From Amphiscolops sp. MND2022 (lineage: Eukaryota): 64,000 bases of DNA. Below the pieces are notes generated by a model, which worked only from the letters and a program-made list of their open reading frames with translations, made no database searches and had not been told where the DNA came from. Location of the stretch: contig OZ076409.1 in assembly GCA_964187785.1 (NCBI GenBank), positions 20,400,001 through 20,464,000 of the forward strand, read 5' to 3'. Below are positions 1 through 60,402 of the stretch, in pieces. The position numbers and the translations under genes were made by a program. Numbering within the stretch: the stretch's first letter is position 1; every line of letters begins with the position of its first letter.

Positions 1-3000
1 GTCAAAAAAAATGTACACGCCTTTGCAACCATATTCATTACTGACTTCATTTCCAGGCAAAACGCTTCAAATTGATTTAGTTGGACCACTCAAGTCTCCA
101 CTTCACAAATACGTGTTGACAACGGTTGATGTTTTTACAAAAAATTTGTTTGCGGTCCCTTGACAAATGTCCGAGCAGACCCAATTGCACGAGAATTGAC
201 GTCAATCTTTTTAAGACATAACTTTTGCCAAAACAATTCTCCCCATTCTTGGCTTTTTAGTCTCTAAATTATTGCATGATATAACACAATTACTTGCAAT
301 TAAGATACAACACGCAAGCTTGAAACACCCAAAAACAGTGGGCGTTGTAGGGGGTTCTCATAGTGCCTCAAGCGCACTGTCAAGCTGAATACCAACGAAC
401 AAAGGAATGATTGGTTCAAATAGGTACATTTGGTAACATTCAACCATAAGACATAATATCATTCTGCGATCCGTTTTAGCCAAACTGTTCTTTTTCATGA
501 CGCGAACCAATCAAACCATTAGACTGGCGCTTTAATGATTCTTTGATCGAACGCTTTTTTCTAACAGCCAGTACGTTTCAGCAATCCAAGAATCGATGAG
601 CAAGAAATTCGGAGGCATGAAACTTGAATTTAACGAAATGTACAACCAATGCAGATCCTATTATGATAGCTAAGCTTAAACCAAACCGTTGGCACCTTTT
701 TCAAATTGTCTCTTATTTATTCCTAAACTCACGAATCAGTCCAAATTTGCCATGAATCGTTACCGATCTGGCTTCTTTCTTTACAGAGTTTGAAAAAATG
801 TCCAATTGAAACTACCTCATTCGAAAGGTTGGAACTAATTATGCCCATCGTTTTAAGAAACGACCTGTAACTCCCCAGAGTAGGATTGATGCCATCCCTT
901 TTATCAAATGCAAAAAAAAATAAATTCGTCCCTAGGCTTTTTTCGAGGAAACCCAGCACTTTTTGATGAAAACCTCCCTTTGTTGTTGGATTCTCCCCCA
1001 ACTGGGCTAACAAAAACAAATGTGGCGAAAGATTATCCATCAGTCACAGTGTGTTTACACTTTCCAGTCGCCCCAGCGCCTGCACCGACTGCAATGGCAG
1101 CTGGCGCCGCTCCTGAGAGTCCTCCTTAGGCAGCGGTCCCTGACTTTATTGTTTTTGGTATACCATACCGTTCTAGAAGTTTTACCTCCTGTTGCTTCGG
1201 GAAGGTCTAGATCTTCGCTACCTCATTGCGATCAAAACTACCACAGTGACAATTCAGATAACTCAACACGTGAAAGTTTTATACACTTCCCTCTTTCTTC
1301 TCCACTTGAACAACCACAGAGGAAATCCTCCAGTGCGGAACTACCCAACACTCATGATCTTCGACCACGACTTCCACCTCGTGATTATCATAAAGAAGCA
1401 GTTCAAAACAAAATATCACCTAAAGTGAGATGCATTCCTGTGAAAGTGCCAGAGTCTTCATTGACTCTTCTGACTCGCCTCGAGAAGCGTGCGGTGATCC
1501 TTGACTCGTGAAATTGCACACGAATGATTCAGTGCACTCCTCATCCTTCCACCATAACAAATCTCTTCACACAATCTCCGCATTTCACACATACTACTCA
1601 ATTCTTGCCAACTGTAAATTTAGAACGACAAAAAGAAGTCAAAAAACGATATTCCCTGGAAAATCTACAAAAAAGACCTTCGAAACAACGTGACGTAAAC
1701 GCAGTCAATGAAACTGGTACCTATCCGGAAATTTGCATTTCTCAGTCCAAGAATTTAACTATTATTACATGCATTGCTCACTGTGTTTCTTCCGAGTTTG
1801 CATAGGGCAAAAACTCAGCTTCTGCAATAGCTTCTTGCTATCCGGCACTTCAAAATCTGCGCAAAATTTCATTAAACACTTTCCACCCGGCTCGTTACTA
1901 ACGTATTTTAACCAACATTTCAACCGACTTCTTTTTAATTTATTCACAAAATGACTGTAATTTATAAATCTACTTACAGAATGCTCGAGCCTTCAGGTCT
2001 TGAAGCAGCATTTAACAGGTCTTAATATTCAAGAACTTGCAATTGCTAAACTAACTTGTGGATATGACCAGTTACATTGGCCTACAGTTTTTTCAACTTT
2101 ATTCAACGTTTTCTCGGGATCCAACTTTTCCATAACAATATTTCAGCCTACACGATAGCCTAGTGCGCCCGAACAATAGTCAAAACCCCCACAGCAACAA
2201 GCTTTCGTTTTTTCCATCGAATCCAAATTTCTGTAGAACTTCCTCAAAGGGAGCGCAATTTTTTCCAAAATTTCAAACATGATCTGGGTTTCGAATTTCT
2301 TTTTATTGACCCCTCACTTTCCATTTTTTTGAGAAGAAAGGGTCACGAATTCAAAATCTACAACCAACAAAAGTTGCCCGACCTTCCTAATGACCTCTTT
2401 ATCTTATTCATTTTCCTTGGGGCTTTCGCTAGTTGAAGCGCAACTTTTCCATATAAATTCTTTTCAAGTTACGTTTCAATTCAAAATCTCTCGGTAAACC
2501 TGGAATGTTTCAAACAGTTTTGTTCATTCAAGCGTGCAATGGAATGTTTGTTCATACCTCCCTACTTGACTTTCTCTTCCGGTCCAAAAAACAAATGAAA
2601 ATCTCTTCTCCATAACAACTTTTACTTTTTCTTCCTCTCGCATTGCCCGTACATTCAATGTTTTCTCTTTTTTTTCTTTTTGAAAACCCAGACGGCCCCG
2701 CTTGCTTTTCCCTCAGGGTTGCACACAAGCAGTTTTTCGATGCAATTGGTCGAATAGGTCAGCCAAATCGCTCGACCCCATTTTATTCAAACCTTGGCTC
2801 TCTTCAGTACGTTTTTCATTAGAAAGTGCTTTGAGAGCTTTCAATGTTCCGGTCGTCACTCCAAAACAATATTAATTTGTCACTTCTCGTATTCGTTTTT
2901 CATCGGTGGGTTTTTATGCTTCGCAGACTGTAACAATTGCCGGCCCCTTACTTAGAGTCAATACTGAATGAGCGCAGAGGGCAGGCTGAACAAAAAAACT

Positions 3001-5256
3001 TTTAGTCTCAGATATCTAAATATATCTTTGCTTTATACTTTTCCGGTAGCCCACGCTCCTCCAAATTATTCAATTCATTCGCATATCGTGTGTGCATAGT
3101 AAGGTACGTGGCCGCAGCCCCACGCTCAGAATATCACAAACATTTGTTCACCGATTAAAACATGAGCAACTGATTCATCTCCCCAATTTCAATATGAACC
3201 TCAGTAAACCACCTACCCCGAATAAGGATTGCATTTGTTCTTGTAATTCCAAATATACTGGGTATATCCTGTCAGTAAACTTTGACATCTCCAATGACCA
3301 TTCTTTGGACGTTTTAGAGGTTGAGTTCAATCAGGTCAATACTTTACTAACAACGGTTTTCTGTTGTTTCTTCAGCCAATCTTTCAAGGCTCCGTCTGAC
3401 TTAAAAGGAAACTTTTTTCCAAAATGATATGCTCTTAATTTATTATTTCTACAGGCGAATCGTTTTTAACGCTGAAAACATTTTTGTCACTAAAATAGGG
3501 TTTCTTTCGATCAGATTCTTTGACGATAAACTTGTTCCATCTTTTCGCCACACTGGTTTCCGGCCCATTTTTCCCCATTCCACGTCGAGTGAAATTTTTT
3601 CCCTAAATTGACAAAATTGCTGCTAAATGGTTCCACGTTTCCTTCGAGCAACCGCATTCAATATCACTTTCTTGTCGTTTGAAATTTGAAAAAAAATATC
3701 CTGTGACCTCTATTTGTTTACTTCATTTTCGACCAATTATTCATCATGCAAGGATCCTAAATGTCATGTTAACACCAAATTTGACTTTTGGCATTGAGAA
3801 ACAGCTTTTCCAACATTGCAGCTTGCCATCTGTTTTTGTTAAACGCTTTCAAAATGGTCAAAGAGCCAAATGCTTGCAATCATGGAATTTGCCGTCCTTT
3901 ATCAATGGACATCGCCGAAAACAAAACGTATTGAGTCATTCGTACTCGCTATGGAAAACACGCATAAAATTTTTGACGTAACATGATGGCGATTCACTGG
4001 TTTTGGATCACGGAGCTCCGCATTGGTGCGAACTTTTGCTACACATTAGCTATCGCACCTTCCACATCCCGCGCTTGCATGGAATACGAGGTATGGTCAA
4101 ATTTATTAAGCTCAAGAAACACATCAGCGTTGCATTTGCTGAACATTGAAATTTTTCTCATGTTTCTAGTAGTTTCACGAAACTCATTCTGCGACTTGTT
4201 CCTAACTTCCTAGCAGATTTAGCATTTGCTTATCAAGTTCGCTCAATTCAAAACACCATCAAACATTCGATGTTTTTCTTTCAGTCGCAGCAAAACCTGC
4301 TTCTCAAGACGTTCTCATAATTCCTTCTATTACTCGTTCTGTTTTCACCATTTTCAACACCTCTAGCTAATTTTTTTACAGGACTGTCGTTTTGTTTGCT
4401 TTTCATTCAATTGTACGTTTTCTAACAAACTAGGATCGAAAAGCAAAAACACCAACAAAATGCAAGTTTTCTCACAGCAGCAAAAAAGCAAACGTTCATT
4501 TCCAGTTCACTTTTTTATAGTGCCTGTTCCACGTTGCTGCTCTGATCTTTTCTTTTGACCCTACCAGTAAAAACGAATAAATTGGTAGCCGATACACGCG
4601 GCCAAGTAGTAGCAGTAACAACATTGACAAAAAATTGCGCCGACAGTAAATAGTGCGAGACTGACAATTGACATTGCGTTTTCCGCTGTTTCAAACATTG
4701 CCATGCCACAAACAAGGGGTTTCTCCTTGCTCCAAGTCAGAACACTTTTTGCACGGAAAACTGTGCTGTTTTTTCAGCACAGAATCACATGCTCTATCCA
4801 TAACTTTTCTTCGCAAGAACAATCATATAACTTTGCGCACACAACAATCATGGCAATTATGCACATAAATTTCATTTTCTGCTGGGGGACTCGAATTATG
4901 TTTGCTCCAGTTTAAACTAAAAACATACTCTTCAAAATCTCGCACACAGGTCAGCAACCGTTTCCATGTTTAAAGCCGCTTTGCTTTGGCCAAAACCTTT
5001 GTTGTCTTCTTTATGAACGTTCGGGTTGGATTTTCATAAATCAACATCACCTTTTCAAACAACTGCGCTCATCTGGTTGCAATTTAACTGTTTGTTTGTT
5101 CCAATAATTACATCTGCGAACTTTGGTACAGGCGTAGATCAATTGAATTCAAAGATAAATTGATGCCCGCATCTTTTCGCTGCCAATTTTGCTACGTTTC
5201 GCCCCGCGTTAAGAGGCGAAAACATTCTTAGTTCTCCATTGATAACACCTGACGAC

Positions 5257-7530
5257 ATGCTTTTGCTTCTTTTTCCTTTTCCTTTCACTCCTGCTTCTGT
5301 TCGAAGCGAATGGGCCTCTAATATCGAAGCCGCTACCAATCCTGACGACCTTATCGAAAATGGGATTCTTTCTTAGGGATTCAGTAAGATTTTGCTAGAT
5401 TTTGTTAGCGTTGAATTTCTAGTGCCATTTCCCACTCACAACTTTACTTTGAAACCCGATTTTGAGAAAATGATCTATCAACTTTCAATACTGTGGGAGA
5501 CACCTTTGTCTCCCTTGCTCGTTGATTTTTGCCGCCACTTTGCTACGAAGACATCGGGATTGAATGTTGATAGGCTGTTAAACCAAATTGATCATGAACT
5601 TTCTGCTGCGCACCAAGATCTCGCGCTTATTATAACGAAACGACAAGGTTTTTAATGCCTCTATAGCCTCCTAAGCCTACTCGCCAACGACGTGCTCGCA
5701 AGTGTGACATGCTGCGCTTACTGCTGTTGCATTTTTTGGTGGAGGACTCGCCTTAGGTAGTTCATATTGGTGTGGTTTGTGTGTTTTTTTTTAAAATTGT
5801 CAAGATCAATCTAAGGCCAACGCCGAAAATATACGTCCCTATCTGATTTTCTAAATTTTCTTACTGATTACGTCACGAATTTCACAACACATACTGACGA
5901 AAAATTGTTTCTTGTTAAAAATGAACTAGCAGCTCTCAATGCTGTTCAACCCAATTTGGCCACAACTCAAGATTGAAATTGGGTAACTATTCAAGAGCCA
6001 TTGGCTATTTACGAACAGGCCATTGGCTAATTTACGAATTTTCATATTTTACGCAACTGCGACCAACTTCTCTTCACTAATCAACAACTAAACATCAATT
6101 TTGATACTATTTCTTCACTTTTTGCCATGATTCGTGGTGGTGTAAGAAACTATCGTTCAGCTCGGTTGCTCTTTGCATGAACATACTCAATTCCATTCCG
6201 GTTTTGTTAAAGGACACTTATCGATGTCACTTATTCCAATGGAATCGTGTTGTCATCATGGATATTAATAACCTTCTGCAATCTAAAGCTGACGACCGTC
6301 TGGCTCTCGCAATTCCAGCCAGCGACCAACTAACCTATTATGATTCTCGTATGCTAGCTGATGCTATCACGGTACCAGAAGGTATCTTGATGAATCTCAA
6401 TACACCGCTTGCATCACAGCAAACTGTTTTTACTCTTTTTGAAACAAAGCTCATAGCTATGCCCTTACCGGACGACCCTCAGACGGCGCTAACTTGGATC
6501 ATTGAAGCTCCTTATTTAGCTCTTCCTGAGAAAGAACTCATATCGTCCCTCTTATCTGTGCAATAATTCGAGCACTGTCTCGACTCGTCGAAGTACCGAT
6601 TTTGCTCCGAAGCGTTCTTGACGCAGATAGGACATCCTTCATGCATTGGCATGCTGTATTTGTTTGGCCCTATTGATGCTTTAGCTGTTTGTAAAACTAT
6701 TGCTATTCCTCTACCTAGTGTTGAACAAGCTACTAACTCAGGATTTGGCATATGGCTCATTACATCGACCACCGCTGATTTCACTTTTCGCAAATCTTCA
6801 TCACTGGCTACATCTTCCTGCTATAAATCATTTAAAGGTTGTCATATTTGCAAAATCACACTAGTTTGTGGCATGCAAATTCATACAGTACTCATCATCA
6901 TACAATCTGATGTTACATCATGTTAATCAATTCCGGTCAAAGAGTTGAGATTATCATTGACAGATCCGCTTGAATCATTAATCGTGGAAGTCCCCCGTCT
7001 TGACGATCTATCGCTATAAACCTCGAAAGCAGAAGCAAGGGTGACTCTTTTGAAAGAAGTACGAAAAAGCTGATAAGCAGCCCAAGATTCCGCCAAGTCA
7101 ATCAATTGATGGAAATACCACGTCTGTTTTCTCAGGACTTTAAACGTTTGAAACCCTCACTAACCGGAAGTTTAATCGATATGTTCCATTCAAGGTGTCT
7201 CCCTTCTTGGTACTGAGGGTTTTGATAGTTTCAACAGTGCTACATCTCGCCTTCATGTATGTTTATCACTAGCGGATCGTATCTTTTCAAAATCATTCAC
7301 GAAACACAATGTCAAACTGGTACTCAGTAAAAAATGAACTTCCAATACAGGTGCGTGACAAACTGTCTCAACGCTATGAAGTAAATGATCAAAAAATTGA
7401 CAAGTCATATGAGAATTCGTACCAACTTCCTAGAGCGTTATCTGTAGCAGAATTTTCCCAACAATCAGCAGAATCATCCCCATTGACTGAGGACACAACA
7501 GAAATGACAGTTGTTTCTATCTTGCACTAA
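5257..7530 (+). pseudogene. Frameshifted env-like class I fusion glycoprotein pseudogene
   Basis: Hydrophobic N-terminus MLLLLFPFPF; basic cleavage site RQRR (5682-5693); hydrophobic Gly/Ala peptide AALTAVAFFGGGLALGS (5711-5761); heptad-like helix (EKLFLVKNELAALNAVQ); Cys-rich region (~6570-6920); hydrophobic TM-like stretch (~7185-7268); short tail. Multiple stops and frameshifts. Confidence 0.65.
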
Positions 7531-7951
7531 CTGTGCGTCACAAAGGTCATCATTATCAGAAGGTGGATCAAACTTTCAATGAGACACAAACATGAGTCCA
7601 CAAACTGTTTGACTTGACGTGTCATTCATCATAAATTTTAATAAAAAAATTTCAGCTTTCAAATAATTAGCTGTTACATGTAGAATACAAATGTACTTTT
7701 ATGGCTCAAAGCACAATACGACCAACAACTACTTGGGACTGGCACAACACTAAATCACAACACCATCGCGTGCGGGCATTTAGCCACCTTGTACTGGAAT
7801 TTTGATGCTATTTTTAATTCTTAGGTTCATTCTGCCTTTCTCTACCGACTTAATTTTGGTGTTTCAGTCCATTCAAAACTTCAATGGCGCTTGACTCCTC
7901 CAACTAGATGATGGCTCTTTTTGCATGCTGGAAGTGTTTGAAGGGAGGAAA

Positions 7952-8707
7952 TGCCATGTACTGAAATAAAACGCCTTAGTTGAGGACAGATAAACTTGAT
8001 CCCTGAACTCAAAATACATTGCCATTAAAAGAAGATTACTTAACATGATTCATGAACTCTCAATAATTGGCCATTTAAATCAGATTACTTCGCCATTTAA
8101 ACTATTTAAAACTCACTCCTAAACTATCCGACCCTTAAACTTTTTGCCCTTATTATCTACAGTAAAATTGAAAAAATTATGATCATGAAATGACAAAGTC
8201 ATAAGAATAGTAAGTAAATAGTTGCATGGTTCGTTTTATAACTAACCAGGAATCAGGATTGTAACCCTAGCTCCGAAGTTTCTGTCCGCTCAGCCATCGC
8301 CAGTAGATCCTCAGGAAAAACAATACTGTAAGAAAAAAGGTCGTAGGACTTGGCGACAGCAGTGGGAGACATCACCCAACTGAACAAAAACCCAAATGAA
8401 CAATTAACTGACCATTTCCAACGTCGGTTCTCAGCGCAGAGCAAAACACCTGATGCGAGGCGGATGAGAAGCTTCGGAACTTATTTCATGGTTGTTGGTA
8501 CGATCCATCACCGTAAGTGCCAAAGTGCCAATCAGGTTGTCTTTATACATTGCCTCGCCCTGACATCTCTTCGAAGTCACTCCCACAACTTGAGATTAAC
8601 CTCCCTGCGGATTTTACTCAAATCAAACTTCAGTAGTCCACAGTCAAAATCGTTTCACGGATTGCAGGTTCGAATCTTTGAAAATGTCCACTCCTGTCAC
8701 CATGTCA
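7952..8707 (+). repeat. Putative 3' LTR
   Basis: Begins TGCCATG immediately after the purine tract and ends CATGTCA (6/7 inverted match, TG...CA). No second LTR is in the window to confirm the boundaries. Confidence 0.5.
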
Positions 8708-9041: not shown

Positions 9042-9385
9042 AGGTCAGGGACATTTCGTCACCAACCATTTGGGCGACAATATGGCGTCGGTCACATGGG
9101 CGACGAAAGTGTCGACCAAATGGGGTGATCAAATTGATCAATTAACTGATATATTTGAAGAGGTTAGCATGTTTGTTGTATGGCTCGGTCGCTTTGCTCC
9201 CTTCGCCAAGTAGCAACATTGAGGCATGGCCATATGGCACGTCGCTCCGCTTGGCTTCGCTCCTGCATTTATGGCACTAGGGGTATGTGAACATATTTGA
9301 CGGGACATTTGGGCGACATTATTGTCCCTGAAATGGGCTGAAACTTTTGTCGCCCAAATGGCTGGTGACGAAACGTCCCTGCCCC
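9042..9385. mobile_element. MITE (TIR family A) carrying core cassette 1
   Basis: TIRs AGGTCAGGGACATTTCGTCACCAACCATTTGGGCGACAA / TTGTCGCCCAAATGGCTGGTGACGAAACGTCCCTGCCCC; 8-bp TSD CTGGAAAC/CTAGAAAC; core 1 at 9175-9297. Confidence 0.8.
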
Positions 9386-9896: not shown

Positions 9897-11485
9897 TGTC
9901 AAAGTTTGCCATCCGCCTCGCAAGGAGGGAAGGATCGAATGATGAGCCCGGACCCCTAAGGTTCAAGTACCTGCCAGATGACATCGCACACACAATTTTT
10001 GATGCCGCACATTGATGTACCTGTTTGTGCGATACAACAGACAACTCTTGATACCGCACATGTTTTGTTGAGTGACAGGTACCTGTCGCGGTGCTATATA
10101 TACCCGATGCTGAACCACTTCTACCATCAATTGCAAATATAAATTTTTAAACCAAGTCTGATCATAACTAATCAATCTCAATTCTGTTCTTCATTCCTAC
10201 CGAACTTCTTTTAAAAGGTTATGGGCCCAGCAGCTTCCCAGGCGACGCCATCTACCTAGCTGATCACAGCCGCACCAGCGCAGATCACGATGACGGCACC
10301 ACGACACTCTCGACAAGAGAAGCTGCTGTTTAGTGGACGAGAGGATGACTTCCCCACTTTTCTGGAGCAATTCGAAGCAAGAGTTTATGCCCTGGGACTT
10401 TCTGACTGCCTTCTGGACAGAATCAAAACAACACCTCTGCACCTTGGCCTCAGACGGGGCTCTCGAGTTCAAATCAAAGCAGTTCAGTGACTTGTGCACA
10501 TCCAATGGCATCAAACAGGAGTTCGCTGCTCCCTACACACCCGAAGAAAACGGCAAAATTGATCGAGCATGGGGCACTGTGACTGGCATGACGCGATGCA
10601 TGATGGCAACTGCAGGGGTCCCAAAGCAGTTCTGGCCTTTTGCTCTTTCAACTGCGATCTACCTGAAGAAACGATCAATCCACCCGGCGCATGGCAAGAC
10701 CCCTTTTGAGATGTTTCACGGAAGCAAGTCTGACCTTTCACATCTTCACGTGTTTGGGTGCCATTCGTGTGTGCTCAACAAAGTCAGGAAGCAACTGGAC
10801 AGCAAGGCACGGGAAGCTATTTTACTGGGATACTCGGGAAATTCTATTCCATATGTGGTTGCCTCAACAGATGGACCAGACACAAGGGCACCAAAGGTCT
10901 GGATATAACGAAACGTCAACTTCAACGACGATGCATTTCCTTACCAACGTGGTTCTGCAGTCACCCAACGGGAGAGCGAGGACAATGATGCATCTGAATT
11001 GGATGTTGATGATCTCAAACCCGTGTCATATGAACAATGCGAGGCTACTTTTACGGAAACCCATGCAATCCAGAGCGAATCAGAAGATAACACCAATCCA
11101 GATGAAGGGACACCCAATGTTACAGACATTACAACAGCAGTGCAGCAGACGACAACCAGATGTTCGGGAAGGACTCGAAGCGCGCCTCAACCTATGTGAC
11201 GGGGAGAGAATTGGAGAAACTGGCACTTCACTGTGATGCTTTGATTTCAAGCGGCCTTCCAAGCAATACAGCAGACGCCCTGGCGGATCCCAACTGGAAA
11301 GCAGCGATGGACAGAGAGTTCAAATCACTGGAAGAAAATGTTGTCTGGGAGCTAGTCAAGCCACCATCAGGTCAAGGCATCATCAGCGGTAAGTGGCATT
11401 TTGCTCATAAATTAGATGACGAAGGAAACGTGGTAAAGTACAAGGCGCGATTCGTGTCACGGGGGTTCACTCAGAGGCCAGGCAG
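9897..11485 (+). mobile_element. Ty1/Copia LTR retrotransposon, internally deleted and 3'-truncated
   Basis: ~320 bp LTR (9897-10216, matches 48742-49061 inverted); copia-type PBS GGTTATGGGCCCAG at 10217-10230; gag start (MTAPRHSRQEKLLFSG) fused to integrase core (APYTPEENGKIDR, FWPFA, HLHVFGC); start of RT (WKAAMDREFKSLEEN...YKARFVSRGF). Confidence 0.9.
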
Positions 11486-11678
11486 GTCGTTCTTACCGCG
11501 TTAATTACAACTCGGTTGCTGTTTTCGTTGAACGAAGTCGTTCTTCGATTAACTCTTATAACCCTGCAATCCTCACCTGCCTTCCTTCAGTGTCAATTCT
11601 ATTTATACTATTTACTTTGTTCTGGAATCAATGATAGAAAGCCATTTGTACTGCCACATCCCGAAGGTTAATTGATTA

Positions 11679-17376: not shown

Positions 17377-17716
17377 GGGTGGCTGTAAAGAGGTCGAATT
17401 TTTCTGGTCGAAAGGGCAGAAGTCGAACCTTTTGATCGAATTGCAGGGATCGAATGGAGTGCGGTGGAATTCGATCGTATTTGTTGTAAGGCTCGGTCGC
17501 TTCGCTCCCTTCGCCAAGTGGGCAACATTGAGGCATGGCCATATGGCACGTTGCTTCGCTTCTGCATTCAGGGCACTAGGGGTATGTGAACATAACTGAC
17601 TACGTTAAAAAAATTTCGATCCGAGTTGTTTCGATCCCATTCAAAAATTTGGTATGTCGACCTGAGAACTAACTCTGATTTTCGATCCCGTTCCTTCGAC
17701 CTAGTTCCGCCCACCC
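17377..17716. mobile_element. MITE family C copy 1 (core cassette 1)
   Basis: Ends GGGTGGCTGTAAAGAGGTCGAA / TTCGACCTAGTTCCGCCCACCC; near-identical to 18642-18980 and, inverted, to 54383-54742. Confidence 0.85.
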
Positions 17717-18641
17717 ACGTTCCACGATACTTCAGAGGCTGTCGTTGAACTTCCAAACCTAGCTGCGGTACATGAAACATATTCGTGCTAACACTTCAAG
17801 TGAAAATCGATGAGCTCTTATGTGTGAAAAGACTTTCTACATTTTTATCAATTTTGCCTCTCGTTGAATGAACGACTTAGTTCAAAAGTTCACAAACAGA
17901 GATCATAAACATTCTTTATACAGCTTCGTTCGAACAGCTCATCAGACGGATATCTTCGATTTTTGAAAAAGATAACTCGAAGTACTTTCTTTTGGAGCAA
18001 AAGTATGTCCTTCAATTTACTTTTCTTCGTGCAACCGTATACTAAGACCGTATTAAATGATAGGCTTCATGTAAATGTTGGAATATCTGATCACTATTGA
18101 ACTTTTACAAAAATGTCTCAACCGCATTATCACTGATACATGTTTAGCCAATTTACCAGGTAAACTTCGAACAAGGGCAAGGAAGGTCAGATTTTCATTC
18201 CAGGTGAACATCCAGATATTTCACAGAGTGATTTGGTTGGACACATGATAGTATTTACCAATTTCACATTTTCATCCCGTCAGCTCAAGAAGTGCACAAG
18301 CTCAGTCTTTCCACTATGAAGGCTCAATTTAATTTTTGCCATCTACGACGGTATATGCTAAACTTCATTTTGAAGTGTCGACATAGAATTTTTCGGTCGG
18401 TTATAGACACAGTTGGTATCATTTTCGAACTTATTACCGTGCCCCCAAAGTAGAAATACTAAAACGGGGGACTACCCTCTTCACACAGGGCATCACACAA
18501 AAACTGTATCAGCCAGACACTCACTCTTTATTCAGTTTTGGATGTTACAGAGACTTTTGCTCAGCTCTCGACTTTCGCATATCTCGTAATCAGGAGGCAA
18601 AAGTTTTTTCCTCAGAAGGTGATTCAGTAGTAACGTTCCAC

Positions 18642-18980
18642 GTATGGCTGTAAATAGGTCGAATTTTTATTGTCGAAAGGACAGAGGTCGAACCTTTTGA
18701 TCGAATTGCAGGGATCAAATGGAATGCGGTCGAATTTTATCGTATTTGTTGTATGGCTCGGTCGCTTCGCTCCCTTCGCCAAGTATCAACATTGAGGCAT
18801 AACCATATGGCACGTCGCTTCGCTCCTGCATTCAGGGCACTAGGGGTATGTGAACATATCTGACTACGTTATAAAAATTTCGATCGGAGTTGTTTCGATC
18901 CCATTCAAAAATTTGGTATGTCGACCTCAGGACTAACTCTGATTTTCGATCCCGCTCCTTCGACCTATTTCCGCCCACCC
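18642..18980. mobile_element. MITE family C copy 2 (core cassette 1)
   Basis: Direct repeat of 17377-17716; left terminus altered (GTATGGCTG instead of GGGTGGCTG). Confidence 0.85.
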
Positions 18981-19399
18981 ACCTTTCAATAGCTGCGAAT
19001 TTCAGCTTCGACGTATCAGCATCATAAGGTTTCTTCTCCAAAAACCTGGAACGTTTTTTATGAAAAAGCTTGAAGTAGTTTTCTGTCGCAATTTGCATAT
19101 GTAGTCTATCGATGTTGGACCGCGTTTTTCTGAATATTCTTTCCAATTGACGCCGTTTCTTACATGCTCTCAGTTCATTATCGTAAAAAGGGCAATCGTG
19201 TTTCGAGATAACTTTCCATTTCTGGAGGATGTTGGTCACTTATTGTTTGAAGGGTTTCCAAGAAACTGTCAATCAGAGGCGACCCTACGATAGAACGCAG
19301 GTGATAAAAACAATCTTGATTGAAATCTACTAGGTTAGCATTTTTCCAATTTCTGAATTTGACAACGGATCTTTCACGATTTTCCAGAAGAAAGTGATG

Positions 19400-19920: not shown

Positions 19921-20148
19921 CCATTAATGACATTCTGATTTTTTGAATGAGTTTGAACTCTGACTGAACTTTGTTTATCAGTTTTTTTTTGAAAATTTTG
20001 TTCCAATTTATTGCAAAAATTGTCAATTATTCATTGCAAGAATTCCAAAAAACCAAATGTTTAACGGACCTGTTTTTTTCAGCAATTATTGATCACCTTT
20101 TAATTGCCTACCGCTGTATTCAGTTGAAGCTCATAATTTCAGTGTGGC

Positions 20149-23100
20149 ATGCAACGGTTTCTGGTTGCAAAAACGCTTTTCAGTCGTTCTTGCAATTTCA
20201 CTGAACGGAACAGAAACCTTCTTCAATCGACTTTCAATTTAGCATTGGTAGCTCGGAAAGACTTCTTTTTCACTGGTCACTGTTGTGCTGATGTCGTTCC
20301 GTACAAGCTATCGGATATTGGAGAAGGGATCCGTGAAGTTGTCATAAAAGAATGGTTTGTGAAAGAAGGTGATGTGGTAAGTCAGTTCGATCAGATCTGT
20401 GAAGTGCAAAGCGACAAAGCATCAGTCACAATCACGAGTCGGTATGATGGCGTTGTGCGGAAGCTCCATTATGATGTGGATGATACTGCACTTGTAGGTC
20501 AACCTCTGGTCGACATAGAAACTGAAAAAGGTTGAGTTAAATTTTGTTGAATTCATTGCTGTATACTGTATAAAGTTAGGACCAAAACGTGATTACTCAG
20601 GAAATGATCGACGCAGATGAATCGGGAAACCTGAGGAAGGTTTATTCAGTTGTCAAGCAGTTAGCAGGAAAGCGGTCAGCTATCAGCGAGACAGTGAAAA
20701 ATGCTGACGGCCACCCGGTTCAAGATGCAAAGCAAAGAATAGAAGAATGGGCTAACCATTTCGAGAAGCTACTGAACCGACCACCACCCGCCACTGCCAA
20801 CCTGACAAAAAACCTACACAATCCCCTCTCCGAAATAAACACAGATCCGCCCACTCTCAGTGAAGTACAAGTAGCCATAAACAAGCTGAAAAGAAACAAA
20901 GCCGGCGGATTGGACAATAATACCCCCCGAATTCTACATAGACGGTGGTATCACACTCGAAAAGGTGCTGACCGAACTCCTACAATGTATTTGGACAAAA
21001 TGCTGCATGCCATCGGAATGGAAGACCGCCGTAATTGTTCCCCTATTCAAAAAAGGCGATAAAACAAACTGCGCAAATTATAGGTGTATCTCCCTTCTAA
21101 ATTTTGCTTGCAAGATCCTCCAAGCGGTTTTAAAGAACCGACTAGAACCAGCATACAAAGGTCGCCCCAACCAAGCTGGCTTCAAAAAGAACAAAGGATG
21201 CCGGGACCAAATCTTTGCAATACGACAGATCCTAGAACAACGTGAAGAGTTTAAGAGGCTGACCAACCTCATCTTCATAGATTTCAAAGCCGCGTTCGAT
21301 AGCGTTGATCGCAACTGCATCTGGCGTATTTGTAAAGACCTTGGCCTACCAGACAAACTTCTAGACGTTCTCCAAATGCTCTACTCGGAAACCTACAGCC
21401 GAGTCCGAGTATAGAAGACCATGTCACGCCAATTCAGCATTCTCAGTGGAGTGCGACAAGGCTCCATTTTATCCCCCTTTCTGTTTAACATCGTAATCGA
21501 TTGCATCATGGAACAAGCTCTCGAAGACGAAAATGTAGGCGTCGCGTTGGATGACATGACAATTGCTGACCTTGACTTCGCCGACAACATCTGTTTGCTT
21601 GACGACAACGGCACAGATGCCCAAAGGCTACTCGACAAAGTAACCAACTACGCTGCTTTAGTAGGCCTCCATTTAAATGTCGGCAAGACCAAATTCTGCG
21701 CCCACGACATCAACCAGAAGTTCCACGTTTATGGTGAAGAACTAGAGCGAGTCGAGGACTTCACCTATCTTGGAAGCAAGATCCAACTTGATGGAAATGT
21801 AACATCAGAAATCAAGGCCAGGATAGCGAAAGCTGCAGGTAGTTTCAACAATTTGAAAAGAGTTTGGAACCAGAGGAGTATCCCACAGCCAGTAAAAGTG
21901 AAAGTCTACAAGGCGTGCGTGAGAAGAGTTCTGTACGGATGCGAGAGCTGGCCAGTTAAGGAATCCGACCTAAGCAGCTTACAGTCCTTCGAAAACCGCT
22001 GTCTGCGACGTATATTCCATAAGGGACATGACATGCCCAACTCATTGATCACTTCACTGCAAAATGTGACCCTCTTGCCCCTACGATACAAAAGAGACGC
22101 TTGAAATGGCCAGGACATGTACTCCGTATGAAGTCCTCGGAAATTCCTAATGCAGTAGTTGAGTTTGAAAAAGGTGAAAACTGGAGAAGACCCCCGGCGG
22201 CGTACGCAAATCCTGGCGAAAAATTGTCCGTGAAGAGGTGAAGAAAGTTGTAAAACCGCCAAAGATGACGCTGAAGAAGTGGGAGGCACAGTGGTTTGAT
22301 CTGTGTAAAGAAACAGCCCAGAACAGAAGCCAATGGAGAGCAGTTATTCGCGACCTGAATGTGGCGGGCTAAGGGCAGCATTGCCTGTACAGCCCTATAT
22401 GGATATATATGGAAAACGTGATTATTGGAGCAAATCGGAAAATTATTTTTTCACGTGTTCATGCAATCGAATGTAGTGTTGGCCGGTAACCGATACTAGT
22501 ATCTACTAGTCACCAAAAGTTTATCCGGAATATGATATCTGATGACCTCCGCAGCCGCAGAGCATGAAATTCCCAAAGTTCGAAGCATGAGAAAAACGCG
22601 TATTCAGTATTTTTTGTGATTGATTCTGTAACTCAGTTTCTTGAGTTGAAATCTAGACGGAAATTTTCGCTCCTTTTTAGTGCACTATCGGTATGTGAAC
22701 GTAGCTAATCACGATTCCCTAATTCAGATTTTTACCTGATACCGTAAGAGCATAGTAGTATAACCATGTATGAGCTCTTTTCAATACATAGTGATAAAAT
22801 TTTGAAGTGCTGCTTCGAGCACTGAAAGTTGGAGATTTCATCAACTCATTTTGATTCACTTTGAAAAGCAGAATTAATGGAAAATTAGCGGATTCAGATT
22901 TGAAAATTATTGGAAACATAACATTAACTCAGCGAATACAGTTGATGATAATCAGCCTCATTAGTCTCCAGTGAGCGGATTAGTGCCCAATGGTTGTTTT
23001 AATTGAAAAGTAAGGATTTTTCACTCGACGCGTGAAAATATTCACTTGATTACCTATTCTGATTTGAATAGACTAATGATAAAAGTATCAAGACAAAGGC

Positions 23101-25545
23101 TTTTGAGCTCAAGTTCAATGTTTTGAAACTCCTGTTTCCCGATCCAAAATCTCGGGCAAAATAGATTGGTCAATTTAGAATTCAAACAATGTTGGAAATA
23201 GTTCAACCGCTCAACACTGAGTAACATTTAACATTGGTACATGTGTTCAGACGATGAAGCAGGTCCTTTGGATTCTATCGCTATTTCCAGCCCCGAAGAC
23301 TCAGAAGCGGAAGAGTTGGGTGCATCTGGATCTCCTTTGTTTGCAAGTTTGGATTCGAAAGACACAGAAACTGTCCAGAAGAAAGTTCTGGCCACTCCTG
23401 CTGTGAGAAGAATTGCAAGCGAAAAGGGAATTGACTTATCTCATGTTGGTTTGCAAGTTGCTTTGTTACATTATATCCTGGTGTGCAGCTGACTAAACAG
23501 CATTCATTTATTCAGGTTAAAGGAACTGGACCTGCCGGTAGAATTCTCAAAGAGGATGTTCTATCTTTTGAACAAGTAAGTTTTTTCTTGGTTTAGTTAT
23601 CTCTGTTCACTTGGTAAGGTTGACGATTGAGGTATAAATAGCAATGACTTTTGGAATGCGGTGTTAAGTTCAACCGATGAAATGAAGTTTTTTTCAAAAA
23701 ATTAGCATCTTGATTTAAGTTAATTGGTACCATTTTTAACGATATCATAAGGGTGTAACTGCTATTTTGAAGTATCAATTGAATTTATCTACCACTTAAG
23801 GGCTGAAAGTATTTATTCAGGGTGCCAGCCCCGAAAGTAAGAAGCCATCAACGCTGTCTATAGAAAAAGAAGTGCAACATGGTATACATGCGCCTTCATT
23901 CGAGACCGAGAGCATTCCTGCAGCGGCCGATCAGATTGTGAAGTTGACACCTTATCAGAAGGGCATGCACAAACTGATGACCGCCTCCTTGGAAATTCCT
24001 CACTTCACCTACTCGGATGAGGTCAATATGACGTCATTAGTGGAAATGAAATATCTGGTGAGTGCAAATCAACTTATATATTTTCGCAGAAAATAATGAA
24101 TGCAGTACTGCTGCCATATCAACTGCGCTAACTTTGCACTCTAAGGTCCGCCTTGAAGATTTTACAACGAAGCAGGAGAAAATTCGAAAATAATTATAAT
24201 ATTTAGACAAGTGCTATAGAGAATCACAGATTAGAACATGCTCAGTAAAATCTCCAGGGACAAATCAAATGTACGAGGTTTCAAGAGATTGCTTTCTTGG
24301 TAGAGGAAAGAAACCAAAACTTGAAGGAATGTCTTCTTACAAGACTTATGGCAAGACTTTTGATGTTCATATTACTCGCCAGTGTCAATGAAATCGAGTT
24401 GAATGACGTTTTCTGTCATCGTGGACTGTGTCCAAGATAGCGCGTCTATGTTTAATTTTAATTGACATTGCAAGCTTATAAACGGCTGAACTCTCTACAA
24501 TGGATGCGAGTTTATAAAAGCATAATCAAAGTACGTGTACAGGAATCATGCTCAGTAAAATCAGTGAGGTTCTTCGCAGGAAGCCATGGGCTCATAGTTT
24601 CTTAAAAGTTTTTTTTCATTTTGGGTAATTGCTAAAAAACTAAACCCAGGGTTACCGGCAGCAAAAACCAATGGCTTGTTTTAGATGAAATCGATGGGCA
24701 AAAAGTTGAATGTGAAGCTGACGTATATGCCGTTCCTAATCAAGGCTGCTTCACTGGCGCTTCTAGAATTCCCACAGATCAATGCTCTCTACAAGTCCAA
24801 GGAGGAGCTATTAGTCATCAAGGCTGCTCACAACATAGGCATTGCTCTAGACACACCCCTCGGTTAGCTGAATGTTTCATAGATCAGCATTGCTTGTGCA
24901 CAGGACATTCCTTTATCGAGTTTGTGTTTGTTCTCTGTTACTATCTTGAAGGTTTATATGGAGGAAGAATATACTTCACTCTGGTATATGAGAACTTTGA
25001 GATGGCATTTCGAAACTAAATTTTTGATAGGTTCTCCAGTATGCCTGTTACTTCAATTCCTCAAAGAAAACTTTTCGAACCATTCTCAAACTCTCCATCC
25101 AAAATAATTTCAACCAATTCTGTTCATGCTTTCAGGTCTGTTGGTTCCAAATATTAAAAACTGTGAGAAGAAATCCATCTTAGAAATAGCTACTGAGTTG
25201 AATGCAATTCAAGAGTTGGGCTCTAAAGGTGCCTTATCCCAAGCACAGCTGTCCAATGCCACATTTAGTCTATCCAACATTGGATTCCTTGGAGGAACGT
25301 ACACCAAACCAGTGATAGCCCCTCCAGAAATAGCCATTGGTGCAATCGGTAGAATCCAGAAGGTGCCCCGTTATGAGTCCTTCTCTCGTGATGGAGAAGA
25401 GCCCAAGGTTGTTCCGCAGCACATCATGAACATCAGTTGGTCAGCAGATCACAGGGTTTTGGACGGGGCCACCGTTTGTCGCTTCTCAAACTTGTGGAAA
25501 TCCTTTTTAGAAGAACCAAAGACAATGTTGTTACATTTGAAATAG
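20149..25545 (+). CDS. DBT: Dihydrolipoamide branched-chain transacylase E2 (BCKDH E2), mitochondrial; 6 exons, 486 aa
   Basis: Exons 20149-20530, 23251-23444, 23516-23575, 23821-24057, 24685-24862, 25136-25545, all GT-AG with consistent phase (1461 nt). Lipoyl domain [29 protein letters not shown]3-binding [24 protein letters not shown]; catalytic [12 protein letters not shown]. Confidence 0.96.
20596..22412 (+). mobile_element. 5'-truncated RTE-clade LINE in DBT intron 1
   Basis: RT motifs [47 protein letters not shown]; 3' TATATGGA-type short-repeat tail; 12-bp TSD AAAACGTGATTA (20584-20595, 22413-22424); contains a frameshift and a stop. Confidence 0.9.
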
Positions 25546-25820: not shown

Positions 25821-27933
25821 GATTACTAGAAACTTTCTCGTCAGAAATTTCGTGGTCGATAATTACGTTCTAAAAGACGTCTGAGTTTTGCTCATCCAAT
25901 GGGAATCGTCTATTGTTGATTCTACTAATGTTGATTCTGTAAATGTGCAAGACGCCCGCTGACCGAGATATTTTCAGCCCCAAATTGTTCTACAACATAA
26001 ATTTGAGGCTTTCTTCCTACGTGGGAAAGTGCAAAACATTTTTTGGAAGGCGTAATGCATATTTTGGGGTATGATGGGAGCTTATGGAATGTTTAAGATT
26101 TGACAAATAAGGTCCAAAAAGATTTTTAGGTTTTCGAGTGAGGTTTTTTAAAATATGAATTTGTCCGATATCGTCTTGAAACAATGCCGGCAGCTATACG
26201 TTTCAATCATGAGCCAATGGATTTTCTACTTGGAAAGAACCATTCGGAAAGGGTCCAAAAATGTCAAGAAGTGGGCACTTTTGTTGTTCTTAGTTTTTCG
26301 CTTATTTTGGGTCATTCTAAGGTAAATTTTGCTACCGTCAAAACTCCAAATTTCCCCTTTTAAGAGCGTGCTGTGTACCTAGTTATACCAAGAGCTTTGT
26401 GAGGCTTTTCTGACCACCAAATGCTTCTGATCTCGAAATAATCACTTAAAATGTCAAGAATTTTGTTTTCAATTTGAGGCATTTTCCAACAAGTTTGTAC
26501 ATATGTCTTCGGAAAAGCCTACTGGATAACAAGTTCAATCGGCAAATTCTACTGGATTTTGAAAATTTTCAAAATATTGGCTGAAAATATTTTGACTACA
26601 AAACATTTCAAAAAGGACAATAGTTGCATTAAAACGTCAAGGTGTTAGAAGTATTCGACTCATTTGAAGTTGTTCCGATGTGTTTTTGAAGCGAACCGAT
26701 GCAACGTTTTCTTCGAAAGGCGTACTACATAGCCAATTGTTTCGTTTTTGAACTTTTTGGACCTTCTAACCCATGAAATCTCTCGGAAATTGTTCACAAA
26801 TTGCATGAAAAACGACAAAAACTGTCTTTTGGGACTTTTCAACATTTTCCGGCTCGAGTTGAAGGGTTTTCCTATTGTAAACTGTTTTCATCTCTTGACA
26901 AAAGCCTACTTCCCTTGTTGAACAGTTTATTCTAATCCCCGAAATTTATCAAAACTTTGACAAACTTGTCATTTTGGAGTCAATTTGAGACATTTTTCAA
27001 TTGAAAAAATCGTATTTATTTATTGAAAAACCTACTGGACAACAAATTCTTTACTTGTTGACACTTTTTAACATTCTAATGTTCGAAGTCCATCGAAAAT
27101 TGCATGAAAACTTTGATAAGTGGAAATTTTGGACTTTTTGTCATTTTAGGTGTCAGTAAGATTTTTTTTTAGAAAACTGTAAGAAAAGCCTACTAGACAA
27201 CGAATTGTTGTCTTTAGAAAACTTTACAAAAATTGCATAAAAACCTTCAAAATAGGAACTTTTTGGGTTGTGTTTTCTTTTTCGATTTCAAGTTGAGGCA
27301 TTTTCCTCTTGAAAACTGCACTTGTCGCTTCACAAAAGACTTTTGGATAATGAAAACTGACCTTGTTGAAAGTTTTCAACATTCTAATCCACGATGTCTA
27401 TCGAAAATGCATGAAAACGTTAAAATTGAGACGTTTTGGAGTTTTTTCGGGGTCTTTTTGATCGTACCCGAAAAAGTCCAAAAATCTCTATAAAAACGCA
27501 TTGCATGAAGCCAAGTTTGAGTGAGTTGAATTCTAGGGTGACACCCTTCAATTTGAAAAAATATTTGGAACATGGCAAATTTTGGAAAAAAAACGCGGCT
27601 GATTTGAATGTTTTCCTTTCCCATTTACTATTTATTATGGTTCAGAGAAAAAGAAAAAGAGAGAAAGAGAATTTTTTCAACACATTACTTTTACGCCTAT
27701 TCAAACCGACCTCAATAAGTGTCTCGGTGAGTTGATTCAATGTAATTAACTTCCTGGCTCAGATTTGATGTCCAAATGATTCTTGCTATTGAGTTTCAAG
27801 TTTCAATAATCAAGTAATGATAATTTGATTAATTCAAATAAACCTTCGCGTGAAAGCTTCCAATGCTAATAACTACGACGAAATTTCTGGATTTGCTATG
27901 ACTAATTTTCTGACGACGAAAATTTCGCCTCTC
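25821..27933. mobile_element. 2.1-kb non-autonomous TIR element (AAATTTCGTCG subterminal family)
   Basis: Ends GATTACTAGAAA... / ...CGACGAAAATTTCGCCTCTC match the ends of 41259-41905 in inverted orientation; 8-bp TSD CAATTTTC (25813-25820, 27934-27941). Confidence 0.65.
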
Positions 27934-33052: not shown

Positions 33053-33494
33053 GGTCGCGGGACAAAATAGCCGATTTTCAAAACGAGACAAAACAGCCGA
33101 TTTTCAAAACAAGACAAACAGCCGATTTTGAAAATGGAACAAAATGAGTGTTGTTACAGCCAATAAGAATAGAACTTGATTAATTTGAAGAGGTTCATAT
33201 TAGTTGTATGGCTCGGTCGCTTCGCTCCCTTCTCCAAGTAGCAACATTGAGGCATGACCATACGGCACGTCGCTCCGCTTCGCTCCTGCATTTAGGGCAC
33301 TAGGGGTATGTGAACATAGCTGACTACGTTGTAATAATAATTTTATTGACTGCTAATCCTACGCATTGACAAAATAGGCTATTTTTATTTCTACCAATCG
33401 GCAATTTTGTACGGTTTTAAAATCGGCAGTTTTGTCCTATTTTGAAAATCGGCTGTTTTGTCCCGTTTAAAATCGGCTGTTTTGTCCCGCTCCC
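33053..33494. mobile_element. MITE (ACAAAACAGCCGATTTT family) carrying core cassette 1
   Basis: TIRs GGTCGCGGGACAAAATAGCCGATTTT / AAAATCGGCTGTTTTGTCCCGCTCCC; 8-bp TSD TTTGAAAC/TTCGAAAC; core 1 at 33203-33334. Confidence 0.85.
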
Positions 33495-54149: not shown

Positions 54150-54938
54150 CCGTCCGATGAGCTGTTCGAACGAAGCCCTATGATGAATGTTTTTGATCTC
54201 TGTTTGTGAACTTTTGAAATAAGTCGTTCATTCAACGAGAGGCAAAATTGATAAAAATGTAGAAAGTCTTTTCACACATAAGAGCTCATCAATTTTCACA
54301 CGAAGTGTTAGCACGAATATGTTTCATGTACCGCAGCTAGGTTTGGAAGTTCAACGACAGTCTCTGAAGTATCGTGGAACGTGGGTGGGCGCAACTAGGT
54401 CGAAGGAACGGGATCGAAAATCAGAGTTAGTCCTCAGGTCGACATACCAAATTTTTGAATGGGATCGAAACAACTCGGATCGAAATTTTTATAACGTAGT
54501 CAGATATGTTCACATACCCCTAGTGCCCTGACTGCAAAGCGTGCCCCGGAGCGAAGCGAAGCGGAGCGACGTGCCATATGGCCATGCCTCAATGTTGATA
54601 CTTGGCGAAGGAAGCGAAGCGACCGAGCCATACAACAAATACGATAAAATTCGACCGCATTCCATTCGATCCCTGCAATTCGATCAAAAGGTTCGACCTC
54701 TGTCCTTTCGACCAGAAAAATTCGACCTATTTACAGCCACCCGTGGAACGTTACTACTGAATCACCTTCTGAGGAATAAACTATTGCCTCCTGATTACGA
54801 GATATGCGAAAGTCGAGAGCTGAGCAAAAGTCTCTGTAACATTCAAAACCGAATAAAGAGTGAGTGTCTGGCTGATATAGTTTTTGTGTGATGCCCTGTG
54901 TAAAGAGGGTCCTCCCCCGTTTTAGTATTTCTTCTTTG
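52657..54938 (+). mobile_element. CR1-like LINE RT fragment (second copy, extends toward the 3' end; interrupted by MITE C)
   Basis: Duplicate of 50050-51542 plus downstream sequence; resumes after MITE C at 54752 and probably again after 58970. Confidence 0.8.
54383..54742. mobile_element. MITE family C copy 3
   Basis: Inverted copy of 17377-17716 with a perfect 9-bp TSD GTGGAACGT (54374-54382, 54743-54751); core 1 at 54489-54636. Confidence 0.9.
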
Positions 54939-55236
54939 GGGGCACGGTAATAAGTTCGAACGCATAGCGAGGTCGAACAGGAGCAAACAGGGTTCTCAAA
55001 CTCAAACTCAAACTTTCAAACTCAAACTCAAACTTTCAAACTTTTAGGTTTCAAACTCGAATTCAAACCAAACTTCATTATATTGTCAAACTCAAACCCA
55101 AACTCAAGCTCACGAAAAAAGTTCAAACAGTTTGAGTTGTTTGACTATTTCTTAATATAGCGCAGATGGCTATAATTTTTTCATTTTTATCAAAATTTTG
55201 GCAATATGATTCAAAAATTTTTTTAGATCGTATGGT

Positions 55237-60280: not shown

Positions 60281-60402
60281 GGTTGAACCTCTGGTATGAT
60301 CAAACATCTTAGTGAAGCTGCTAGTCTGCGAGCTCAGTCCTAATCGTCAAGCAAGAATTTTTTTTGCTCAATGTTGACTGATTTCAGATTTGGGCTTTCG
60401 CA

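What the first reader, a model, noticed from the sequence alone, without database searches (positions are those of the whole stretch)
5257..7951. LTR retroelement with a class I fusion-type envelope gene
Seen: between integrase remnants and the PPT/LTR lies a ~2.2-kb decayed ORF with signal-like start, RQRR site, fusion-peptide-like AALTAVAFFGGGLALG, heptad helix, Cys cluster and TM. Established: this layout (early furin site, long F1-like ectodomain) is that of baculovirus F / errantivirus env and paramyxo/pneumovirus F. Inference: an endogenous retrovirus-like lineage, possibly an independent env capture if the host is not an insect.
Basis: partly seen in the sequence, partly recalled or inferred. 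Interest (0 to 1): 0.7.

Follow-up and report, generated by a model that had tools for sequence, protein, structure and literature searches.

The report
Decayed retrotransposon with viral fusion gene
This is a broken copy of a retrovirus-like jumping gene from an animal genome; its family carries a virus-type membrane-fusion gene, a kind of element already described across many animals, and adds an unusual ADP-ribose-removing enzyme domain at the end of its integrase.

Summary
Window 5257-7530 (+) is a dead envelope gene (9 stops, at least 6 frame changes), 71-73% identical over its longest stretch to a large family of unnamed, often uninterrupted 750-790 aa proteins. These have a signal-like start, furin site, Gly/Ala fusion peptide, long helices, 12 near-invariant cysteines and a membrane anchor. 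A predicted model matches paramyxo/pneumovirus F, baculovirus F and invertebrate RNA-virus glycoproteins: a class I, F-type fusogen. The whole 1-8400 stretch shares one strand bias. Host and RT lineage could not be fixed, so an independent capture is not excluded (about 20%). What is unusual is the combination of F-type env, integrase-macrodomain fusion and long spacer. New variant of a known kind.

The parts
1..915 (+). Decayed integrase core and C-terminal (GPY/F-type) module; 3' part of pol, cut by the window start
   Evidence: tblastn of database relatives P0250/P0246; P0250 hits Pfam rve E 2.5e-7 and Integrase_p58_C E 0.05; window 2-160 alone rve E 0.024
930..1725 (+). Pro/Ser-rich linker between integrase and macrodomain, decayed
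   Evidence: aligns to P0241-P0250 at 48-69%
1725..2158 (+). Decayed TARG1/OARD1-like macrodomain ending pol
   Evidence: 60% to the C-terminus of P0247, which hits human OARD1/C6orf130 at E 3e-20; Atlas 30 of 30 hits Macro
2159..5256 (.). 3.1 kb pol-env spacer of unknown content, probably part of the element
   Evidence: GC skew negative in 8 of 8 tiles like the rest of 1-8400; no Pfam hit in six frames; no terminal repeats
5257..7530 (+). F-type (class I) env pseudogene
   Evidence: fold of relative P0010
5257..5304 (+). Signal-peptide-like start
   Evidence: sequence; hydrophobic start in full-length relatives; no signal-peptide predictor was run
5682..5693 (+). Furin-type site RQRR
   Evidence: R-x-K/R-R in 28 of 31 aligned relatives that cover the site
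5711..5758 (+). Fusion-peptide remnant
   Evidence: hydrophobic Gly/Ala stretch right after the site in 31 of 31 relatives
5839..6174 (+). Long helical (heptad-type) region of the F1-like chain
   Evidence: 66% to P0022 199-304; helices 184-314 in the model of P0010
7195..7266 (+). Transmembrane anchor
   Evidence: hydrophobic segment in 32 of 39 relatives covering it; helix 643-677 in the model
7940..7951 (+). Polypurine tract
   Evidence: only 12+ purine run followed by TG on the + strand
7952..8349 (+). Probable LTR (starts TG, 49-bp tandem duplication at 7993-8090; end set by the PBS-like site)
   Evidence: weak likeness to the 331-bp LTR-like repeat behind env in L001 (score 44, reached by 7 of 300 shuffles; shared 12-mer), no good terminal inverted repeat
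8351..8368 (+). PBS-like site TGGCGACAGCAGTGGGA just behind the probable LTR
   Evidence: tRNA type not confirmed (no match in the eLife PBS table; no tRNA gene in the window)

Best explanation
Window 1-~8350 is the 3' two thirds of one dead, env-bearing LTR retroelement, most likely Ty3/gypsy, of the broad F-type class that occurs across animals. In working copies of the family the env product is a type I membrane glycoprotein: made through the ER, cut by furin after about 145 residues into a short F2-like and a long F1-like chain that begins with the fusion peptide, and refolding its long helices to fuse the particle's membrane with a target cell (layout and fold shown; trimer, cleavage and fusion inferred from paramyxovirus and baculovirus F). 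By analogy with Drosophila gypsy/ZAM the particles would pass from somatic cells to the germ line (inferred). Pol ends in integrase plus a TARG1-like macrodomain (shown); most likely it travels with the integration complex and removes or reads ADP-ribose marks, as a counter to host ADP-ribosylation or as a targeting module in the place where other lineages have a chromodomain (inferred). This copy makes none of these proteins (shown).
For: Env: 15 relatives at E<=1.7e-89, 349 representatives at E<=1e-3; five clusters hold 102, 21, 18, 82 and 36 members and 34 of 75 listed members are 700 aa or longer. Furin motif 28 of 31, fusion peptide 31 of 31, anchor 32 of 39, 12 Cys conserved in 93-100% of rows. 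Model pLDDT 73.8, pTM 0.58; all 36 rows shown in Foldseek/PDB are paramyxo/pneumovirus F, best E 6.8e-6; BFVD best hits E 3e-21 to 1e-14 include baculovirus F; VIA wide: NDV F first (Z 8.0, rmsd 4.4, 296 aligned), F proteins 10 of the top 13; Pfam Baculo_F in 4 of 46 members, best 1e-6. Element: order integrase-macro-env-PPT-TG on one strand; GC skew negative in 21 of 21 tiles of 1-8400, mean -0.17, against +0.025 (sd 0.087) in the other 139; env and pol are equally far from their nearest database relatives (71% and 69%); L001 has a related env followed by a repeat bounded by TGTAACAT/ATGTTACA. Macrodomain; same fusion in 9 of 10 pol relatives, the tenth ends earlier. Literature.
Against: No gag, protease, RT or RNase H in the window, so the lineage rests on integrase alone, whose best solved relatives are foamy-virus integrase (E 1.2e-7) ahead of Ty3 (2.1e-6); Pfam integrase hits are under the curated cut-offs. 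Pol-env linkage was seen in this one copy only; L001 stops 820 nt before env and its upstream frame does not match pol (E 0.37); one shared contig length between a pol and an env relative (1 of 10 pol hits) is compatible with chance. The 3.1 kb spacer is long for the class and unexplained. The LTR has no visible partner and poor terminal repeats. Foldseek TM-scores are low (0.17-0.28 by query in PDB) and the Atlas recognition value was under its mark (1456 of 2300). The best viral fold matches are RNA-virus and herpesvirus proteins, not a named retroelement env.
Confidence: 0.65

Rival explanations
1. Same element, but its env is a separate capture of an F-like gene (from a jingchuvirus/lispivirus-type RNA virus, a mollusc-type herpesvirus or an unsampled virus), unrelated by descent to the env of other errantiviruses.
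For: Top BFVD matches are Hubei myriapoda virus 8, an abalone herpesvirus protein, chu-related viruses and baculovirus F; no named retroelement env among 50 rows, 3 of them unnamed. Pfam Gypsy env is not among the 25 families shown for 46 members. The family is deep and distinct (down to 23% identity). [quoted passage not shown]
Against: F-type env is widespread in non-insect Ty3/gypsy elements and follows pol there. BFVD holds viral proteins, so retroelement env is under-represented. Atlas neighbours include a Gypsy/Baculo_F cluster and a rotifer cluster at 0.92.
Confidence: 0.2
2. The env-PPT-LTR block and the integrase-macrodomain block belong to different elements that lie side by side by chance, or env sits in a pol-less non-autonomous element.
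For: 3.1 kb of unexplained DNA between them; linkage not seen in a second locus; the window is full of repeats.
Against: Same strand, canonical order, one continuous strand bias over 1-8400, similar decay of both genes, no LTR, PBS or insertion ends found in the spacer.
Confidence: 0.09
3. The element belongs near lokiretroviruses/Odin or foamy viruses rather than within Ty3/gypsy.
For: Lokiretrovirus Env is F-like with an RXKR site; best solved integrase match is foamy virus.
Against: Lokiretroviruses were found only in vertebrates and Odin only in sea anemones among 3,624 animal genomes, 2 of them xenacoelomorph; the host DBT gene does not group with the fish clade; Ty3 integrase scores nearly as well and a p58-type C-terminal module is weakly hit.
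Confidence: 0.04
4. A domesticated host fusogen (syncytin- or Iris-like) rather than a mobile env.
For: Many relatives are uninterrupted.
Against: This copy is broken; relatives occur as hundreds of dispersed near-identical copies in several subfamilies and carry PPT/LTR-like ends.
Confidence: 0.02

Closest known systems
F-type 'ancient errantiviruses' (env-bearing Ty3/gypsy of non-insect animals; Chary and Hayashi, PMC13524379)
   Same: pol-env-PPT-LTR order, F-type env with signal peptide, furin site, fusion peptide and anchor, many copies per genome
   Different: integrase ends in a TARG1-like macrodomain (the word 'macro' does not occur in the paper's main text; chromodomains do); pol-env gap of 3.1 kb, against 1 kb allowed in their first filter and 3 kb in their extension; host may be outside their sampled phyla; RT not available to place it
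Drosophila errantiviruses gypsy/ZAM/Idefix (Metaviridae, Errantivirus)
   Same: env as third gene, class I fusogen related to baculovirus F
   Different: env is about 785 aa with no Pfam Gypsy hit among the families shown; macrodomain; host not shown to be an insect
Baculovirus F / Ld130 (PF12259) and paramyxo/pneumovirus F (PF00523)
   Same: early furin site, N-terminal fusion peptide on the long chain, same fold
   Different: 8-16% identity in structural alignments; encoded by a retroelement; an ectodomain about 100 residues longer than paramyxovirus F
Lokiretroviruses (PMC7947760)
   Same: LTR element with F-like env and RXKR site
   Different: vertebrate hosts, dual RNase H; neither is shown here
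Human TARG1/OARD1 (C6orf130; PDB 4J5R) and macro-bearing fish epsilon-like ERVs (review PMC4977317)
   Same: macrodomain at E 3e-20 with the Lys and Asp that align to TARG1's catalytic pair (residue roles recalled)
   Different: here fused behind an integrase through a long linker; in fish ERVs described as an additional reading frame

Membership tests
Class I F-type fusion proteins | Signal peptide, furin site within the first ~150 residues, hydrophobic fusion peptide right after it | tested here: met
   for the window; 28 of 31 and 31 of 31 relatives; signal peptide judged by hydropathy only
Class I F-type fusion proteins | Paramyxo/baculovirus F fold with long heptad helices and Cys-rich head | tested here: met
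   model of relative P0010; low TM-scores noted
Class I F-type fusion proteins | C-terminal membrane anchor and tail | tested here: met
   32 of 39 relatives; window 7195-7266
Class I F-type fusion proteins | Homotrimer that refolds to a hairpin bundle and fuses membranes | not testable with these tools
   three full ectodomains exceed the folding limit; function needs experiment
Env-bearing Ty3/gypsy ('errantivirus' in the sense of PMC13524379) | Pol classed as Ty3/gypsy by RT | not testable with these tools
   RT lies outside the window; no genome held
Env-bearing Ty3/gypsy ('errantivirus' in the sense of PMC13524379) | Integrase last of the core pol enzymes, Ty3/gypsy type | tested here: inconclusive
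   integrase is at the 3' end of pol, which excludes copia; rve and Integrase_p58_C under cut-off; foamy and Ty3 integrases score alike
Env-bearing Ty3/gypsy ('errantivirus' in the sense of PMC13524379) | env downstream of pol on the same strand, before PPT | tested here: met
   this copy only
Env-bearing Ty3/gypsy ('errantivirus' in the sense of PMC13524379) | Paired LTRs, PBS, target-site duplication | tested here: inconclusive
   one probable LTR and a PBS-like site behind it; LTR-like repeat with 8-bp terminal inverted repeat behind env in L001; no pair visible
Env-bearing Ty3/gypsy ('errantivirus' in the sense of PMC13524379) | Multiple near-identical copies with open env | tested here: met
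   34 of 75 listed cluster members are 700 aa or longer; whole elements not seen
Insect errantiviruses (genus Errantivirus) | Insect host and gypsy-type env (PF07253) | tested here: inconclusive
   host DBT is a long branch with one unnamed sister; grouping with insects neither shown nor rejected (support 32/41); PF07253 not among 25 of 32 families shown
Lokiretroviruses | Dual RNase H (tether) and RT sister to retroviruses | not testable with these tools
   region outside the window
TARG1/OARD1-type macrodomains | Sequence match with catalytic Lys and Asp | tested here: met
   E 3e-20; both motifs in 4 of 10 pol relatives, the other 6 end or change frame before one or both; both motifs readable in the window copy; residue roles recalled

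The most novel reading that the evidence does not exclude
A so far undescribed, recently active endogenous-retrovirus-like lineage in an animal group missing from the published survey (possibly acoels), which took its F-type env independently from an invertebrate RNA or herpes-type virus, carries an active TARG1-like ADP-ribose eraser on its integrase as a counter to host ADP-ribosylation defence, and has a further accessory gene in the 3.1 kb spacer.
Probability: 0.15. Interest if true: 0.72.

Novelty: new variant of a known kind. Interest (0 to 1): 0.42.

Why it matters
As a plain F-type env element it adds one more family to a class already shown to be pan-animal. It matters more in two ways. 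If the host is a xenacoelomorph, it fills a gap at the base of bilaterians in the test of whether env came once and early or many times. And an integrase fused to a TARG1-like macrodomain, in 9 of 10 pol relatives, suggests that ADP-ribosylation acts on retroelements in invertebrates, as it does on RNA viruses that carry macrodomains; that is testable with a small enzyme domain.

Tried and rejected
No genome is held, so copies, LTR pairs and RT could not be examined. No sequencing run was listed (none was listed, no RNA holder listed; no evidence either way), so no reads were laid. Direct Pfam, PDB-sequence and PHROGs searches with single env proteins gave nothing useful. The 46-row alignment was too diverse for the locus search; the 9-row one gave 1 locus of 171 candidates in metagenome contigs and 0 of 128 in viral contigs. 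Pol queries in viral contigs: 0 of 6 and 1 of 5 (L002, 23% identity, E 3e-4, dropped unread as too distant). Complex prediction of three N-terminal helical segments with three pre-anchor segments: no answer (score 0.21, mark 0.34), no evidence either way. A protein-looking minus-strand frame in the spacer (2143-4320, 31 stops in 726 codons) had no Pfam hit and no clear codon-position bias: unproven. Host placement by the DBT gene: in a 67-row quick tree the window sits outside the ant, spider, fish and mollusc clades on a long branch, but in a 16-row careful tree a grouping with insects is neither shown nor rejected; I therefore do not claim a non-insect host as a result. Upstream-of-env and 3' UTR DNA of L001 do not align to the window above shuffles (5' side score 32, shuffle mean 29). 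Earlier scan notes: nothing by sequence or place. Literature searches for a macrodomain in LTR retrotransposon pol found no such paper beyond fish ERVs; the library lacks most subscription journals, so this is weak. The copia remnants at 10294-11504 belong to another element.

Full report
1. Observation. The three + frames of 5257-7530 hold, in order, a hydrophobic start, RQRR (5682-5693), AALTAVAFFGGGLALG (5711-5758), a long helical region, a Cys-rich region and a hydrophobic anchor. The gene is dead: 9 internal stops and at least 6 frame changes. A purine run at 7940-7951 is followed by TG; it is the only such run of 12 or more on the + strand of the window. The integrase remnants lie at 1-~900, well upstream. 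No whole genome is held.

2. The env family. The longest single-frame stretch (302 codons) found 15 longer proteins among 2,177 candidates, best E 5.6e-124 at 71%, and 349 cluster representatives at E<=1e-3, 41 at 1e-30, down to 23% identity among the 150 listed. Five clusters hold 102, 21, 18, 82 and 36 members, all unnamed and from ENA; 34 of the 75 listed are 700 aa or longer. Ten more distant clusters come from ENA, Logan and JGI. In a tree of 28 database proteins the window copy is a long tip (0.43) inside the P0022/P0005 group, support 99, as expected of a decayed copy. I aligned 46 of the proteins fetched, chosen for length. Of the 31 rows that cover the cleavage region 28 have R-x-K/R-R, 2 a minimal R-x-x-R and 1 none; all 31 continue with a hydrophobic Gly/Ala stretch; 32 of 39 rows have an anchor; 12 cysteines are kept in 93-100% of the rows that cover them.

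3. Fold. The model of the unaltered relative P0010 has mean pLDDT 73.8 and pTM 0.58, with helices 184-314, a beta-rich head and an anchor helix. Foldseek against the PDB gave 158 chains at E<=1e-3; all 36 rows shown are paramyxo- or pneumovirus F, best E 6.8e-6, with low TM-scores of 0.17-0.28. An independent aligner over 48,161 chains put Newcastle disease virus F first (Z 8.0, rmsd 4.4, 296 aligned) and F proteins in 10 of the top 13 rows. Against viral models the best of 49 hits at E<=1e-3 were Hubei myriapoda virus 8 glycoprotein (3e-21), an abalone herpesvirus protein (2e-18), chu-related glycoproteins and baculovirus F (3e-17); paramyxovirus F starts at rank 35. Pfam Baculo_F matched 4 of 46 members, best 1e-6; the profile hit a solved 'fusion protein' (9W4D, organism not shown) at E 0.004. 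The Atlas gave Baculo_F and Fusion_gly clusters at 0.95-0.96, but its recognition value was below the mark, so that is weak support. Together: a class I, F-type fusogen.

4. The element. A pol query found 10 relatives. They cover window 11-2160 in order: integrase core, C-terminal module, linker, then a macrodomain up to the stop at 2158. P0250 hits Pfam rve at 2.5e-7 and Integrase_p58_C at 0.05, both under cut-off, and foamy-virus and Ty3 integrases at 1.2e-7 and 2.1e-6. Integrase at the end of pol excludes copia; Ty3/gypsy is the likeliest class but is not proven without RT. The C-terminus of P0247 matches human OARD1/TARG1 at E 3e-20, and 30 of 30 Atlas hits are Macro. 9 of the 10 relatives reach into the domain; 4 of 10 keep both motifs that align to TARG1's catalytic Lys and Asp (roles recalled), the others end or change frame earlier. 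GC skew is negative in 21 of 21 tiles of 1-8400, including 8 of 8 in the spacer, against a mean of +0.025 elsewhere, which argues for one element. Behind the PPT, 7952-8349 has a 49-bp tandem duplication and is followed by a PBS-like site at 8351. Locus L001 carries a 53%-identical env followed by a 331-bp stretch bounded by TGTAACAT and ATGTTACA; its likeness to the window's stretch is weak (7 of 300 shuffles reach the score). So the LTR is probable, and pol-env linkage is seen in this copy only.

5. Host. The window holds intron-split DBT and TANC-like genes, so the host is an animal-type eukaryote. Its DBT is 56-65% identical to 64 of 66 hits over the last exon (two are lower, 39% and 54%...) and 69% to one protein whose organism is not shown; the two form a long branch. 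A grouping with insects is neither shown nor rejected. My guess of an acoel is recall, helped only by the LTR-rich, 37-39% GC acoel genomes described in 10.1101/2022.08.27.505549 (passages).

6. Mechanism. Shown: layout, fold, order of genes, decay of this copy, many open env frames in relatives. Inferred from paramyxovirus and baculovirus F: ER entry, trimer, furin cut, refolding and membrane fusion. Inferred from Drosophila gypsy as summarised in PMC13524379: soma-to-germ-line passage of particles; the authors caution that this is unknown outside Drosophila. Inferred: the macrodomain stays on integrase and erases or reads ADP-ribose.

7. What is known. PMC13524379 (seen: abstract, sections 13 and 14 whole, first parts of sections 5, 6 and 9, term passages, first parts of supplementary files 1 and 2, term searches of all 7 text supplements) lists 1,512 env-bearing Ty3/gypsy elements, with F-type env in many non-insect phyla, and argues against baculoviruses as the source. 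Its genome list names no xenacoelomorph, and six acoel-related terms are absent from the supplements. Its F-type alignments and trees are figures that could not be read and may bear on the placing of this env. PMC7947760 and PMC9040795 (passages) describe F-like env in lokiretroviruses. PMC4977317 (passage) mentions macro-domain frames in fish ERVs. 10.1101/2021.11.30.470311 and PMC4695847 (passages) added nothing. Five searches found no paper on a macrodomain in LTR-retrotransposon pol; the library is incomplete. One unchecked note of this scan reports a different, bacterial-type macrodomain between gag and protease of another gypsy family.

8. Verdict. This is a decayed member of a large family that works like an F-type errantivirus and probably is one in the broad sense (0.65); an independent env capture stays open (0.2). 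The integrase-macrodomain fusion and the long spacer make it a variant worth a follow-up with the genome in hand. Interest 0.42.

Noticed in passing
   Followed up: yes
window 2143-4320 (-): Charged, protein-looking minus-strand frame in the pol-env spacer (31 stops in 726 codons); no Pfam hit, no clear codon bias; may be a decayed antisense accessory gene or nothing.
   Followed up: partly
window 8351-8368: PBS-like site right behind the probable 3' LTR, with about 700 nt of unidentified DNA after it; suggests a tandem element sharing the LTR.
   Followed up: partly
P0093, P0117, P0128, P0148, P0163: Distant env relatives (25-39% identity) sit on 8.5-15 kb contigs, the size of whole elements or of RNA-virus genomes; context could not be fetched.
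   Followed up: no
window 10294-11504: Copia-type remnant (rve, SH3, RVT_2), with a 90-95% inverted copy of its left part at 48527-49061 next to copia gag remnants at 47800-48420.
   Followed up: partly
window 20137-25545: Host DBT gene in several exons, with a LINE reverse transcriptase (20580-22104) inside an intron.
   Followed up: partly
window 48925-53480 and 26173-28989: Near-perfect tandem duplications with periods of about 2.6 kb (99%) and 2.5 kb (100% over the 300 nt shown); recent duplication or assembly artefact.
   Followed up: no
window 60382-63207: TANC1/2-like NACHT gene pieces (Pfam NPHP3_N, HTH_TANC1).
   Followed up: no
window 9147-9315, 17523-18988, 33196-33342, 54375-54960, 60016-60183: Short dispersed repeat family at 87-97% identity in both orientations, SINE- or MITE-like.
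   Followed up: no
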